NCBI GenBank assembly: GCA_977030845.1 | Contig: OZ365111.1 | Coordinates: 6,138,001-6,202,000 of the forward strand | DNA length: 64,000 nucleotides | Reading direction: 5' to 3' | DNA from: Fimbriosthenelais zetlandica | Taxonomy: Eukaryota | Part shown: piece by piece, positions 50,301 through 62,300 of the stretch | Numbering within the stretch: the first letter of the stretch is position 1 | Layout of the letters: each line of letters begins with the position of its first letter | Program-made: the position numbers

Positions 50301-53300
50301 GTGAAATTTGTTTAAAAAAATCTTTATACAAAAATTATTTTGTATACAGGATTTAAATTTATGTGTGAAATTTGTTTTAAAAAATCTTTATACAAAAAGT
50401 GTGAAATTTTTTTTTTCCTTCAGGTTCTTCAACCTGGTACGAGACCTTCAGTTGTGGATGAGTGACATCCAGCGCCAGATGAGCACACAGGAGAAGCCGA
50501 GAGACGTGTCCGGCGTCGAGCTGCTCATGAACAACCACCAAAGTCTGAAGGCAGAGATAGACGCCCGCGAGGAGAACTTTGCCATCTGTCTAAATCTCGG
50601 CCGCGACTTGCTTCACCGCAAGCACTACAGACACCCAGAGGTGAGTGGACAGTTTTATTGTTAAGCCAGGAACACACTAATCCGATTCTCCAAACCGTCG
50701 CCAACCGATACCCGATTTCTAATGGCATCTAAAGATTGAAATTTTGTCAGTGGTTAACGTTACCTATGTGTAAAGGACTTCAAATTACAAGCATTTGGTG
50801 TGAATAGAAATATACTTTCTGACAGCTATCGGATGGCGCCGGATAGAAAATCGGATTAGTGTGTTCCATGATTTGTGTCAACCTAAATACGAGGGCTATA
50901 TGAAGTCGAAAAAGTAACAATTATTTGAATAATGGACCTGAAAACTCCAATTTCTTTCTGGGAATGATAATTTACATACACTACTGTTCATCGGGTGGGT
51001 AAATAAAATGATATATTGATGTCTATTTTACAAGAAAAACCCATGGAAATGATACACTACTGTTCATCAGGTGGTTAAAATCATCGGTGATAGAGCCCCT
51101 TTAAGTTAACTGAACCAGGAATACTAATTGAATTATCTATTCAACTGTTTATTCCAACTATATTTCAGGTGAGAGACAAATTAATTGGACTGGGAACACA
51201 GAGAGGAGAGATGATGGAACATTGGGATGGATGCTGGGAGTACCTCCAACTTAGTAAGTATCCAATTAAGAAATAAAAGAATCCTATACACTAAAATGAT
51301 TATCATTAAATAAAATATTAACATTTAAAAAACTAGTTCAGTAGACAAAAGATCAGCAATTAGTATTAAACTGTGTTACGTTTATGTCTTGCAATTAACA
51401 CCGGAGATTGACAACAAATGGTAACTAACTGAAATCTAATGCAAACCTTTCAACATTGCAGTATTGGAGGTCTACCAATTTGCCAGAGACGCATCCGTGG
51501 CAGAGGCTTGGCTTGCAGCACATGAGCCATACTTACAAAGTAGAGATTTTGGCGTAAGTTCTCTTTTCTTGGTTTTTGAACTGTACTAAATTGAAGATCT
51601 CGGATGCATTAATGCCTAAATTTACAGTTTCAAAATACATATATATATATATAAATAATAGGATTACTTATAGTATGTCCCAAGATTAGTCCTACATTTG
51701 AAAATTGAATTTCAGGATTCACTAGATGCAGTGGAAGCACTCATCAAAAAACACGAAGCCTTTGAGAAGTCTGCTGCCACCCAAGAGGAAAGATTCGCCG
51801 CTCTTGAGCGGCTAACGACGGTAAGTCTTAAACGTGTATTCATTCAAGTTTCCCACAGTCGTGGAGAAACCTGAAAAATGGAATGGAAATATATCAAAAA
51901 GTTGTTTAAAATGGTCACGGAAAATTTGTAGAATTTATTTTTGTAAAATGTTAAATTTTTATATTTGAAATTGATTGTATAAATCTTCAAAAAATGTTCT
52001 ACTACTTTAACCAAGAATGATCTCTCTCCTTTCAGTTTGAGATAAAAGACCGAGAAAAGAGGAAAGAAGAAGAGTTTCGACGAGAACATCCAGACGCGCC
52101 TTACCCTCAAAAACAAAGTTATGTTCAGAAATATACAGAAGAGTTCATACCACCACCAGAACCAGAGTAAGTACATTGAGTATCATTTCTTAAAAAATAT
52201 ATAGCCCGTTAATCTTAACTTCCCGAGGACTTCTCCTTCTACCCATGTTCTATATTACATTCAATATGAGGGAAAATCACTGGAAACTCGAGTTGACCAC
52301 ATTAAATGACTGTTGTCATTTCAATTTTCAGAACGGAAATTACAATCAGGTAACCTTGTCATGGAAGCCCAGGTTTTTGATTGAGATTCGTTCAAATGAA
52401 TAATAATATTTCTATGAACCCATTGAATACCCCCAAGATCATCAGCGCATGATATTTTTACTTGACCTCAGCACTGCACTGGAATGCAGATAGTATTTAC
52501 CATTTCCAGCCGAGATAATATATTATTTTGATTTGAAAATCTGAGATTTACTATAATAATACAATTAGGTATTTTAATCCGATTTAAATCCTAGTTTTGC
52601 ACTTTTTGCAATGCCATCTGAGATCGACCCTTCGAATGAATTCAGCTTCCCAATTATCTTTACTTTGCGACCACCGTTCCCCAATTCTTTTAGAACCCCA
52701 AACCAGAAAATAGCCACGGTTTTCTATTTAATTTTTATATTGATCCAAGATTTTTAAATTTCACCCCATTTTGTTGATATTTGGACCCCTAAGCATGATG
52801 TTCCTCTTTATTGCCCCGACTACCAATTTTTTGGATGTTTTTTGAAAAACTTTCAATATCCCTTTCCTCATCCATCAATGTTGCTGGTGTTTTCAGACCG
52901 GAACCGGAACCGGAACCAGAACCACAGCAATCGTCACCGGATCGTGACGAGGCTGGAGGAGCCGGCGAACCCGAGTCTGTTATAAATGGAGAGAAAGAAC
53001 ACGAAGACAGTCCCCGAGGAACTGCCGCTGAAGGTAAGAGAGAAACGCGTACCCCCGCTTGGGCGTCTTTAGTTTCTATAGGTGTTGTGGTCCGTCGGCG
53101 AGGGATCCCCAAAAGGTGCTTCCCAATGAAACTGAAGCCCCTGAGATTTTTTTTTGTAACAGGGGAGCTTCTTTGTTTCTCAATCCAGCGAACTTTCTTA
53201 CTCTTAGCCAGTGTCTCTGATTCTTGAGAGAACATGCCCAGCTGGAGTGATTTCCCCTATGTTGTGTAGTCATCTCTGCCCGTGGGGCAGTGAAGCATGC

Positions 53301-59300: not shown

Positions 59301-62300
59301 CTTCATCCCAGGTGTAATGCCGGAATGGGCTTTTATATTGATGAAATGAACCGGTTATATTGCAATTGATGACCGTTTTAAACTCCCTAGTAAAATATTG
59401 TTGCCATCTCACCTGAAAGATTACACATACATGATATATTTTTGTCACCAAATTGGCAGTAGATTTGTTGATTTGTTTTGACTTACTTTTTTTAATTCAT
59501 TCCTGCCCTTTTTTGCATTTCTTACTTCCTTCGTATATATTTATATCTGTGTTACCGTTTTTTATCCATCACTTTTTCTTATACCATGCTATTTTTATGT
59601 GTTTATTCCTTAATGAATACAATGTAATAATTCCAATGAAAAAGAAACGTCATTCAAATAAGTTACCATTTTGCAAGCATTTGCCATGAAAATCAGCAAC
59701 TTGTAAAGGCCTTCGGTTCAATCTCCTTGTATGTTGTTTATTCGATTAAATTTTTTGTAAGCCGTCTTTAATTTTAATCATCTGTGTTGCTGATTTTGTT
59801 AGGCAAACGAATTTATATTCGCAAACATGCAGATGTCATATTCTATACTATTCCTGCTACAATGGACCAAAACTAATTTGCTCACTCGAGTGCTTCATTT
59901 AACCATTACATGCATAAACCCCAACACAACCTTATGAGAAAAGCTTCTGGAATAAGTGGTATCGGGCAATAAGTTAAGACTTTTTCACAAGTTGTTATCC
60001 TTTGTACTCTGATCTGAGACTAAATGAATCTAATTTGTTTTTTTAGTGCCAGGACAGGATGCGGAGGACCGATTTGAGGGAATACTTAGCCGAAAACACG
60101 AATGGGAGACCACCACAAAGAAAGCTAGTAATCGGTAAGTATCTACCTTCATTGATGATCATGATCATTATGTTCTAGCTTCAGAAGGATTAAGAATACT
60201 ATGCGTGGTTTGCAGTAATATTTTGACTTGCAGAAATCAGTTCTAGAATAACCTATAATTCAAATTACACAGATTCCATATTTCCACATGTGGAAATAGT
60301 CATGAAAAGAGTTCTTTGAAAAAAAATATATATGCTGTTCATTCTTTTTCTTAAATGAAAAGTATTAAAGTACAGTTTTGTTATGGATACTTTTGTATAA
60401 CAATGTGTATGTCATGTAATTTTGGTTTTCTTCCACAGATCGTGGGAAAAACTGTATTGCCTGTTGGAAAATGGCCAGCTTGCTTTCTACAAAGATGCTA
60501 AACACGCTAAATCAGTAAGTATCACATTAAGTTTAGCATGTTCCCCTTCAATATGCCAAAGTAAAATATCTAAGCATTAAAGGTCCCACTTTGAAATGAC
60601 CAGTGAAACGAATTTGTACCTTGCGCTGTGTAACTTTCAATTTATTCTGTCCTCATTCATACAAAACAGGGCCATTTGAATATTTTTCTTTTTGTTTTTC
60701 TCCTTCGGAATTCATGAATTCTCTTCATCTTTCAGGAACCAACTAACTACTTCCATCATGAACCACCAGTGGATATGAATGGTGCATCTTGCGCTATTGC
60801 TTCTAACTACACCAAACGCCCACACGTGTTCCGTCTGAAGCTGGCCACAGGTGGTGAATACCTCTTCCAGGGCAAAGATGAGGTTTGTACTCTACTTATA
60901 TATATATATATATATTTTTTTTTTAATTTGATTTATTTATCCTATATAGCCATTTCATGATGTTTAATCGATTGTTCTCAAAGAAATATTAAAATACTTT
61001 CACTAAGTGGGGCTCTGTGTAGCAATACTGTACCTTCTTGAAATTTGGTGCTTATAATTCATGCAATGTCCTAAGAGAAATATCAAGAGACAAAACATGT
61101 ACCGCTGTATTATATGGGCCTGTGGGACTTTCGAATCATTTAGTAAAAACACATCACATATAATTTACTGTGGTGCTAATGTTTTCTGCAGTTATCCCTT
61201 CATGGCTTCTTTATTTATTTATTTATTAATTTATCTATTTATTTATTAATTTATTTATTAATTAATTTATTCATTTATTTTTTCTTCACAGGAGGAGATG
61301 AACACATGGATCCAGCAGCTGAACGCCCAAGCAGGCGGCGAGGCGGCATCCCCAACGCGAGCACAGACACTTCCCGTAACATCAGGCGAAGGCAAGAAAG
61401 ACGACTCCAAACGACGCAGTTTCTTCACGCTTGGAAAGAAAAAGTAAACTTAGAAACACGCTTTGGTCTTCTGAGGCCTGACCCTGCCCAACCTTTGTGA
61501 CGTGTGGAGTGTAAGGATAGAGTGGCTTCCCCAACACACCTGCCCCTCGCCCTCTAGTGTAGGAGGACTGTAACTACATTACTACTGTGACCATCATCAG
61601 CACCGCGTTTACATCCTTGTGACCCTTACCGCTTGGCATGGACGAACCATGGGCCCCATAATCATACCACCAAAACTAATGATATAACTAGTTGTCTCTG
61701 CCAATTACCAGCCACAATACCAAACATCGAGGCCGTCTAGTTTTCTATATCCAGACTTGATATTCACACCCTTTACTACCAGGGTATAATGAATGATTGA
61801 CAATTACTGTTACTCGCCACGTGTCCATAGATATGCATAGCTCCTATGATACTTTTGCTAGTGATTGCTTGGAGCCTGACTTTCTCACCATTGTCACTAA
61901 TTGTATATCCGCCACTCCATAGCTGAACGGCCCGGTTTTTAACTCTTTCTATATTATATATGGTCAATGATAGAGCCAGATATGTTCCCACACATTCTCT
62001 TTGCCATCTCTTGAAGTTGGTGACTCTGGTCTCTTGACAGTTTGGGGGCATGTGTTTATTGCATGCAGGAGAAGCCATTTCCATTTAACCATGTACAGAT
62101 ACTTCTTATCAGCCCAGCACTCATTGTGTCCTATCTCAGTCCCACTCTCGGGCCACGGAATCATTTGTACGGTCCATTTCTCATGATTCAGATCTGCATG
62201 CCAGAAAGTATATAAGAGTAATTCATGACTAATTTTTTTAGCTTCGATATATATATGTGAATAACTTGGGAAGAATACATGAAGGAAATATGTCAGTTGA

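What the first reader, a model, noticed from the sequence alone, without database searches (positions are those of the whole stretch)
53034..60046. About ten-fold TGCATG enrichment in the alternatively spliced linker region
I counted 13 sense-strand TGCATG in about 7 kb: 53336, 53370, 53483, 53550, 53648, 54350, 55260, 55613, 57543, 57581, 57674, 57923 and 58867. A rough base-composition estimate gives 1-2 expected. Several sit next to the candidate exons, for example 10 nt after the 57913 donor.
Basis: partly seen in the sequence, partly recalled or inferred. Interest (0 to 1): 0.65.

Follow-up and report, generated by a model that had tools for sequence, protein, structure and literature searches.

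The report
Rbfox-type motif clusters in beta-spectrin intron
A 7-kb stretch between the last linker exon and the first PH-domain exon of a beta-spectrin gene carries an unusual, strand-specific pile-up of TGCATG, the binding word of Rbfox splicing regulators, which probably marks regulated splicing there but is a familiar kind of signal and is not proven to act on the proposed exons.

Summary
All 13 sense-strand TGCATG copies are at the stated coordinates. The excess is real. Expected counts are 1.5 (base composition), 2.7 and 3.6 (first- and second-order Markov), 2.0 (rest of window) and 2.3 (32 other introns of the gene), so the excess is about 4-6.5-fold, and ten-fold only under the crudest null. 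TGCATG ranks first of 4071 hexamers for enrichment here. No repeats explain the sites.

The interval lies between a linker exon (52897-53033) and the first PH-domain exon (60047-60134) of a non-human conventional beta-spectrin gene. Two stretches meet a published Rbfox cluster definition.

My best reading is pre-mRNA binding sites for an Rbfox-family protein that tune optional linker exons. The best candidate exon is 57830-57913.

The caveats are substantial:
- The candidate exons are unverified. Similar splice-site/ORF candidates arise at chance rates.
- Only 4 of 13 sites lie within 300 nt of a candidate exon.
- One constitutive intron (30123-33373) is nearly as dense.
- The interval does not differ significantly from the two long constitutive introns (p=0.14).
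- Genome-wide, orthologue and transcript checks were impossible.

The parts
52897..53033 (+). Upstream linker exon (137 nt). Its donor is GAAG|gtaaga and leaves 1 base of a split codon.
   Evidence: Sequence; my exon model; no Pfam family; codon usage exon-like.
53034..60046 (+). The 7013-nt interval of the finding. It is one intron if no exon inside it is used. It holds 13 sense and 5 antisense TGCATG.
   Evidence: The flanking exons join in frame (1 + 2 bases).
53295..54355 (+). Motif cluster 1: 8 sense GCATG, 6 of them TGCATG. The core is 53336-53653, with 5 TGCATG in 318 nt, lying 303-615 nt into the intron after the 53033 donor.
   Evidence: Cluster rule of PMC12435732 applied; site contexts all differ. 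The scan p for 5 in 318 nt is 2.5e-4 window-wide and 0.018 within the interval.
54712..54918 (+). Candidate cassette exon A (207 nt, phase 1-1, Pro/Thr/Ser-rich). This is the weakest candidate.
   Evidence: Acceptor PWM 2.3 (32 model acceptors score 7.1-18.5), donor 8.0. Codon score -0.22 per codon, and 20% of open intronic segments score as high. No Pfam family.
55260..55618 (+). Two single TGCATG sites (55260 and 55613), 342 and 695 nt after the donor of candidate exon A.
56887..56961 (+). Candidate cassette exon C (75 nt, phase 1-1, GC 0.65).
   Evidence: Acceptor PWM 2.4, donor 8.4. Codon score 0.85 per codon, and 0.2% of null segments score as high.
57543..57928 (+). Motif cluster 2: 4 TGCATG. 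Three lie 287, 249 and 156 nt before the acceptor of exon B, and one lies at intron position +10 after its donor.
57830..57913 (+). Candidate cassette exon B (84 nt, phase 1-1, basic and Ser-rich, contains an R-R-A-R-S stretch). This is the best candidate and the only one with motifs close by.
   Evidence: Acceptor PWM 6.3, donor 6.4. It is the only hit at the stricter thresholds. Codon score 0.36 per codon, and 1% of null segments score as high. Translation.
58867..58872 (+). A single TGCATG, 954 nt after exon B and 1180 nt before the PH exon.
60047..60134 (+). First PH-domain exon. Its acceptor is tttttttag|TG.
   Evidence: The PH domain is confirmed on the exon 60736-60882 (PH_9 1.6e-7; 1btn 2.6e-10).

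Best explanation
The window holds most of a conventional beta-spectrin gene on the + strand, running from CH domain through spectrin repeats to a C-terminal PH domain. The finding's 7-kb interval lies between the last unstructured linker exon and the first PH-domain exon.

On the transcribed strand it carries two clusters and several single copies of UGCAUG, the high-affinity binding word of Rbfox/Fox-1 splicing regulators. I think these are most likely real pre-mRNA binding sites for an Rbfox-family protein. In the tissues where that protein is made (typically neurons and muscle), binding would shift which small optional exons are spliced in between the spectrin repeats and the PH domain.

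The clearest case is the 84-nt exon 57830-57913. A site 10 nt after its donor would favour inclusion under the usual position rule. Three sites 156-287 nt before its acceptor would favour skipping. Cluster 1 would act from a distance.

Shown here: the motif counts, strand bias, clustering, gene identity and exon phases.
Inferred: protein binding, the existence and optional use of the exons, and the direction of any effect.
For: - 13 of 13 sites confirmed.
- The excess is 3.6- to 6.6-fold over realistic nulls.
- TGCATG is the top hexamer of 4071; its reverse complement ranks 313.
- 0 of 200 Markov windows reach 13. The location-free scan p is 2e-4.
- There is a T before 13 of 18 GCATG here, against 16 of 55 elsewhere.
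- The sites are independent, not copies of a repeat.
- Two stretches meet the published rule of at least 4 (T)GCATG in 500 nt (PMC12435732 sections 8 and 20).
- No sense TGCATG lies within 300 nt of any model constitutive exon (0 in 14,553 nt, 2.6 expected), while 4 lie within 300 nt of exon B.
- The three candidate exons are all phase 1-1, multiples of 3, with acceptors weaker than all 32 model acceptors. Two have exon-like codon usage.
- Fox-1 proteins and (U)GCAUG control are conserved across metazoans, including nematodes. Whole introns beside alternative nematode exons show TGCATG observed/expected of 3.35 (PMC2777236 and PMC1500816, passages read).
Against: - No transcript, orthologue or binding data could be consulted, so alternative use of any exon here is unshown.
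- Relaxed exon criteria give chance-level yields: 3 in 6.9 kb here, 7 in 20.9 kb of control introns, and 3 on the antisense strand.
- Candidate A is not exon-like in codon usage.
- 9 of 13 sites are more than 300 nt from any candidate exon.
- Constitutive intron 30123-33373 has 1.5 TGCATG per kb against 1.85 here. Against the two long constitutive introns the excess is not significant (p=0.14).
- The strand bias is only p=0.048.
- The GU-rich, G-run and U-run motifs reported around mammalian clusters are not enriched.
- Exon B has sites on both sides, so no net direction can be predicted.
Confidence: 0.45

Rival explanations
1. The motifs are real Rbfox-type binding sites but are a property of the whole gene's long introns, not of the linker. 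Deep-intronic clusters might recruit Rbfox complexes to a long neuronal or muscle pre-mRNA, for example to help splice long introns or silence pseudo-exons. The linker interval simply holds the most because it is the longest.
For: - The distal parts of control introns (12,371 nt) have 9 sense against 3 antisense TGCATG, with 3.6 expected (P=0.011).
- Intron 30123-33373 has 5 sense and 1 antisense, plus four GCATG in 42 nt (scan p 0.0015).
- The interval against the two long constitutive introns gives p=0.14.
- Deep-intronic clusters are functional in a mammalian gene (PMC12435732, abstract).
Against: - The interval is still the densest, at 1.85 per kb against 1.05 per kb.
- It holds 2 of the 3 sense clusters in the window.
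- One site sits at +10 of a plausible exon's donor.
- The third long intron, 21110-24157, has 0 sites in 3,048 nt.
Confidence: 0.25
2. There is no function. This would be a neutral or compositional quirk, for example a genome in which TGCATG is common in long introns, combined with a post hoc choice of motif and interval.
For: - Only one 64-kb window could be used as background.
- The order-4 expectation is 11.6, so the excess lies in overlapping sub-words.
- The whole window has more TGCATG on both strands than shuffles: 53 against 36.7 +/- 6.6, and 1 of 100 shuffles reaches 53.
- Strand bias is marginal.
Against: - TGCATG ranks 1 of 4071 without any prior choice of motif, 0.016 after correction.
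- The interval's limits are exon borders, not motif positions.
- Scan statistics that allow any location give 2e-4.
- The preference for T before GCATG is specific to the interval.
- No repeat or duplication underlies the sites.
Confidence: 0.2
3. The sites regulate the choice of 3' end rather than a cassette exon, producing a short isoform without the PH domain. This would happen when a donor in the interval is not used and the transcript ends inside the intron.
For: - Reading through the donors of candidates A and C meets a stop after 3 and 2 codons (sequence; ORFs).
- An AATAAA lies near 55438, between sites 55260 and 55613.
- Beta-spectrins of vertebrates have several splice isoforms (PMC2174349, abstract start seen in the listing). 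That some are short forms lacking the PH domain I recall; I did not check it.
- RBFOX2 is reported to affect polyadenylation choice (PMC8600936, abstract start seen in the listing).
Against: - I did not test polyadenylation signals systematically.
- A single AATAAA in AT-rich intron is expected by chance.
- There is no transcript evidence.
Confidence: 0.05
4. The sites act at DNA level, as an intronic enhancer whose transcription-factor sites contain TGCATG.
For: TGCATG is nearly palindromic and the clusters are compact.
Against: A DNA-level site should be strand-blind. Here the counts are 13 sense against 5 antisense, and the reverse complement ranks only 313 of 4071.
Confidence: 0.05

Closest known systems
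Repeated UGCAUG downstream of fibronectin exon EIIIB, and the three UGCAUG copies downstream of protein 4.1R exon 16 (Fox-1 review PMC2777236, passages read)
   Same: Multiple sense-strand UGCAUG copies in an intron beside a small optional exon. In the 4.1R case the gene also belongs to the spectrin-based membrane skeleton.
   Different: In those cases the exon is known to be alternative, the copies lie in the proximal downstream intron, and binding and effect were tested. Here only 1 of 13 copies is proximal and downstream of a candidate exon, and nothing has been tested.
Deep-intronic (T)GCATG clusters, for example in Ntrk2 (PMC12435732; abstract and sections 8 and 20 read)
   Same: Two stretches meet the paper's rule of at least 4 motifs in 500 nt. 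Cluster 1 lies more than 300 nt from any exon.
   Different: The mammalian clusters are reported to be embedded in GU-rich, G-run and U-run motifs, which are not enriched here. The introns here are kilobases long, not tens of kilobases. The paper's gene lists are in supplements that I could not open.
Nematode intronic (T)GCATG elements, for example in unc-52 (PMC1500816, passages read)
   Same: A non-vertebrate precedent for this motif. Whole-intron observed/expected is 3.35 beside alternative exons, with no upstream or downstream preference, much like the spread seen here.
   Different: Those motifs were picked by cross-species conservation and tested in reporters.
Splice isoforms of vertebrate beta-spectrins (beta-IV isoforms, PMC2174349: abstract start seen in the listing)
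   Same: A beta-spectrin gene, and variability in what the mature transcript encodes.
   Different: My four literature searches found no paper linking Rbfox or UGCAUG to a beta-spectrin linker. This gene is not a vertebrate paralogue: its PH exon is 22 of 44 residues identical to mouse 1btn and 22 of 47 to fly 1dro (my count from the alignments).

Membership tests
Rbfox/Fox-1 (U)GCAUG intronic splicing-regulatory element | Copies of (U)GCAUG on the transcribed strand within an intron | tested here: met
   13 TGCATG and 18 GCATG on the gene's strand in 53034-60046. The gene's strand was fixed by the exon model and domain hits.
Rbfox/Fox-1 (U)GCAUG intronic splicing-regulatory element | Multi-copy cluster: at least 4 (T)GCATG within 500 nt (rule of PMC12435732) | tested here: met
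   53295-54355 has 8 and 57544-57928 has 4. The window has a third sense cluster at 32154-32195 and one antisense cluster. At least 2 clusters arose in 8 of 200 Markov windows.
Rbfox/Fox-1 (U)GCAUG intronic splicing-regulatory element | The motifs flank an exon that is alternatively spliced | tested here: inconclusive
   There are three phase 1-1 candidates with weak acceptors, and two have exon-like codon usage. Equal criteria give similar yields in control sequence. No transcript data were available.
Rbfox/Fox-1 (U)GCAUG intronic splicing-regulatory element | Conservation of the motifs in orthologous introns | not testable with these tools
Rbfox/Fox-1 (U)GCAUG intronic splicing-regulatory element | Bound by an Rbfox protein, and splicing changes when the protein or the motif is removed | not testable with these tools
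   This needs CLIP, knockdown or a minigene.
Rbfox/LASR-type deep-intronic cluster (mammalian description) | Cluster embedded in GU-rich, G-run or U-run motifs | tested here: not met
   Counts in both clusters +/-50 nt lie within the null from 2000 random intronic segments. The fraction of null segments at or above the observed count was 0.20-1.0.
Conventional beta-spectrin gene | CH domain, spectrin repeats and a C-terminal PH domain, in that order on one strand | tested here: met
   Searched exon by exon:
- CH, 1.3e-11 (20937-21107)
- Spectrin, 6.7e-31 (46089-46607)
- PH_9, 1.6e-7 (60736-60882)
- Spectrin beta chain 8iah_M, 1.1e-115
- Beta-spectrin PH domains 1btn, 1wjm and 1dro

The most novel reading that the evidence does not exclude
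Rbfox control of beta-spectrin may be ancient and pre-vertebrate. In this reading, a non-vertebrate beta-spectrin pre-mRNA carries several sense-strand UGCAUG clusters in its long introns. The densest ones govern a set of modular phase 1-1 exons that lengthen the spacer just before the lipid-binding PH domain and add a basic, phosphorylatable segment to it. This would give neurons or muscle a differently tethered membrane skeleton.
Probability: 0.25. Interest if true: 0.45.

Novelty: new member of a known kind. Interest (0 to 1): 0.3.

Why it matters
If the clusters work as proposed, this would be a clean, testable case of tissue-specific tuning of the spectrin membrane skeleton at the junction between the rod and the PH domain. 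It would be in an animal outside the vertebrates, where Rbfox targets are poorly mapped. It would also add to the evidence that clustered, partly distal UGCAUG sites, and not only proximal ones, mark regulated regions. If instead the density is typical of long introns in this genome, the finding is ordinary.

Tried and rejected
- Repeats as the source of the sites: rejected. The repeat finder, self-BLAST and TRF show no repeat covering any site. The only dispersed repeat (55032-55229, matching 36283-36501) holds none.
- Structured RNA families: 0 Rfam matches in the window.
- LASR co-motifs: not enriched.
- Long-range pairing: the one inverted repeat joining 53548-53575 to 58555-58582 is 71% complementary and centred on the motif itself, so I did not pursue it.
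- Literature on Rbfox or UGCAUG and beta-spectrin: four searches gave nothing specific. The titles are largely unrelated to splicing; I opened none of them.
- CH1 exons upstream of 20.9 kb: a short-motif scan found none. I therefore left 1-20.9 kb out of the intron controls.
- Order-3 Markov simulation: it timed out. I replaced it with analytic expectations and a first-order simulation.
- My first strict exon chain failed because an exon was missing. The relaxed model still has two doubtful borders, the 27156 donor and the 48521 acceptor, and one phase break between 24763 and 25837.
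Full report
**Observation**

A pattern search finds + strand TGCATG at all 13 stated positions in 53034-60046, and nowhere else in that interval. Five copies lie on the antisense strand. Two of those are only the palindromic overlap TGCATGCA. The window has no N.

For the 7013 nt the expected counts are:
- 1.50 from base composition
- 2.73 from a first-order Markov model
- 3.58 from a second-order Markov model
- 1.97 from the rest of the window, which has 16 in 56,987 nt
- 2.34 from 32 other introns of the same gene, which have 9 in 27,002 nt

The realistic excess is about 4- to 6.5-fold.

An order-4 expectation is 11.6. This shows only that the overlapping pentamers TGCAT (22 v 59) and GCATG (18 v 55) are themselves enriched.

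**Is it more than chance?**

Without any prior choice of motif, TGCATG is the most enriched of 4071 hexamers in the interval against the rest of the window. The binomial p is 4.0e-6, or 0.016 after multiplying by 4071, and the runner-up is at 8.9e-4. Its reverse complement ranks 313.

Further tests:
- In 200 first-order Markov windows of 64 kb, the largest count in any 7013-nt span averaged 5.2 and never exceeded 9.
- A scan statistic that lets the span fall anywhere gives 2e-4 for 13 of the window's 29 sense sites.
- The five sites at 53336-53653 (318 nt) give 2.5e-4 window-wide, and 0.018 given 13 sites in the interval.
- 13 of 18 sense GCATG in the interval carry the preceding T, against 16 of 55 elsewhere (Fisher 0.0016).
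- The strand bias is modest: 13 v 5 gives p=0.048, and 11 v 3 without the overlaps gives p=0.029.
- No direct, inverted, tandem or dispersed repeat covers a site, and the 13 contexts all differ.

**What the locus is**

The + strand carries a conventional beta-spectrin gene. All protein searches were made exon by exon.

The hits:
- CH domain, 20937-21107 (1.3e-11)
- Spectrin repeat, 46089-46607 (6.7e-31)
- PH_9, 60736-60882 (1.6e-7)
- Exon 25862-26425 matches the spectrin beta chain 8iah_M at 1.1e-115
- The PH exon matches the beta-spectrin PH domains 1btn, 1wjm and 1dro

From the alignments I count 22 of 44 identical residues to the mouse chain and 22 of 47 to the fly chain. This is neither a human gene nor a vertebrate paralogue, and I do not take the contig for human. 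I did not determine the species.

My own exon model has 34 exons, plus a small exon at 33374-33451 found later. It places the interval between a 137-nt linker exon (52897-53033, donor GAAG|gtaaga) and the first PH-domain exon (60047-60134). Those two exons join in frame. The model has two doubtful borders and one phase break, listed under Tried and rejected.

**Candidate exons inside the interval**

Three open segments have AG and GT borders in the required phase 1-1 and lengths that are multiples of 3:

| Candidate | Coordinates | Length (nt) |
|---|---|---|
| A | 54712-54918 | 207 |
| C | 56887-56961 | 75 |
| B | 57830-57913 | 84 |

Scores, using position weight matrices built from the gene's own exons and codon usage:

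| Candidate | Acceptor score | Donor score | Codon score per codon | Null segments scoring as high |
|---|---|---|---|---|
| A | 2.3 | 8.0 | -0.22 | 20% |
| C | 2.4 | 8.4 | 0.85 | 0.2% |
| B | 6.3 | 6.4 | 0.36 | 1% |

- All three acceptors score below all 32 model acceptors, which range 7.1-18.5. The donors are ordinary.
- Codon usage is exon-like for C and B but not for A.
- None matches a Pfam family, as expected for a disordered linker.
- The same relaxed criteria yield 7 candidates in 20,910 nt of control introns and 3 on the antisense strand of the interval. Splice sites plus an open frame therefore prove nothing.
- B is the only candidate to pass the stricter thresholds.
- Whether any of the three is used, or used optionally, is not shown.

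**Where the motifs lie**

- Cluster 1: by the published rule of at least 4 (T)GCATG in 500 nt, extended by neighbours closer than 500 nt (PMC12435732, sections 8 and 20), it spans 53295-54355 with 8 GCATG. Its core lies 303-615 nt after the 53033 donor.
- Cluster 2: it spans 57544-57928 with 4 GCATG. Three sites lie 287, 249 and 156 nt before exon B and one at +10 after its donor.
- Single sites: 54350 lies 362 nt before A, 55260 and 55613 lie 342 and 695 nt after A, and 58867 lies 954 nt after B.

Only 4 of 13 sites are within 300 nt of a candidate exon, and all four are at B.

**The control that weakens the link to the linker**

Eight of the 9 sense sites in control introns sit in two long constitutive introns:
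- 30123-33373 has 5 sense and 1 antisense TGCATG, plus four GCATG within 42 nt at 32154-32195.
- 37338-41717 has 3 sense and 1 antisense.

Distal parts of control introns hold 9 sense sites against 3.6 expected (P=0.011). Parts within 300 nt of constitutive exons hold 0 against 2.6 expected (P=0.075). Against the two long constitutive introns the interval is only 1.8 times as dense (p=0.14). It cannot be tested genome-wide here.

**Mechanism**

The Fox-1 review (PMC2777236, passages read) states four relevant points. The family is conserved in metazoans. Upstream (U)GCAUG represses and downstream (U)GCAUG enhances an exon. Elements often come in several copies. More copies act more strongly.

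The nematode study (PMC1500816, passages read) reports TGCATG observed/expected of 3.35 in whole introns beside alternative exons, with no side preference. PMC12435732 (abstract) shows that deep-intronic clusters can be required for regulation.

On this basis the most likely reading is that the sites bind an Rbfox-family protein on the pre-mRNA and bias exon choice in the linker. B is the most credible target. Because B has sites on both sides, I cannot predict the direction.

The GU-rich, G-run and U-run motifs said to surround mammalian clusters are not enriched here. Rivals are a gene-wide deep-intronic Rbfox load, a neutral genomic quirk, control of an internal 3' end, and a DNA-level element.

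**Novelty and what stayed unchecked**

Four literature searches found no paper tying Rbfox or UGCAUG to a beta-spectrin linker. I therefore file this as a new candidate member of a well-known kind of element.

Unchecked:
- Transcripts.
- The supplementary tables of PMC12435732, which may list cluster-bearing genes.

**Verdict**

The finding is of modest interest.

Noticed in passing
window 32154-32195: Four sense-strand GCATG lie within 42 nt, deep in the constitutive intron 30123-33373. This meets the published cluster rule on its own, and the scan p is 0.0015. The same intron has 5 sense against 1 antisense TGCATG.
   Followed up: partly
window 33374-33451: A small constitutive exon (78 nt, phase 0-0) completes a spectrin repeat between exons 30006-30122 and 33727-33891. 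My first model had missed it.
   Followed up: yes
window 55032-55229 and 36283-36501: A dispersed repeat, 71% identical over 221 nt. By eye, a related open frame also appears near 49.95-50.1 kb. None of the TGCATG sites lies inside it.
   Followed up: partly
window, all model introns and exons 20.9-61.5 kb: No sense TGCATG lies within 300 nt of any model constitutive exon (0 in 14,553 nt, 2.6 expected, 3 antisense). None lies in 6,499 nt of exons (2 antisense). This may be avoidance near constitutive exons, but it is not significant (P=0.075).
   Followed up: partly
window 6026-6516, minus strand: This is the only antisense-strand GCATG cluster in the window (4 copies). It lies upstream of the first recognised exon, and I do not know whether it sits inside a gene.
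   Followed up: no
window 62060-62065 and 62195-62200: Two sense TGCATG lie after the stop codon (61445-61447), so they are probably in the 3' UTR. Both are within 750 nt of the stop.
   Followed up: no
window 55483-55534: A 27-nt unit is repeated 1.9 times (92% match), between the sites at 55260 and 55613.
   Followed up: no
window 57832-57912: The translation of candidate exon B is basic and Ser-rich, with an R-R-A-R-S stretch. From general knowledge, this would fit a basophilic-kinase site placed just before the PH domain.
   Followed up: no
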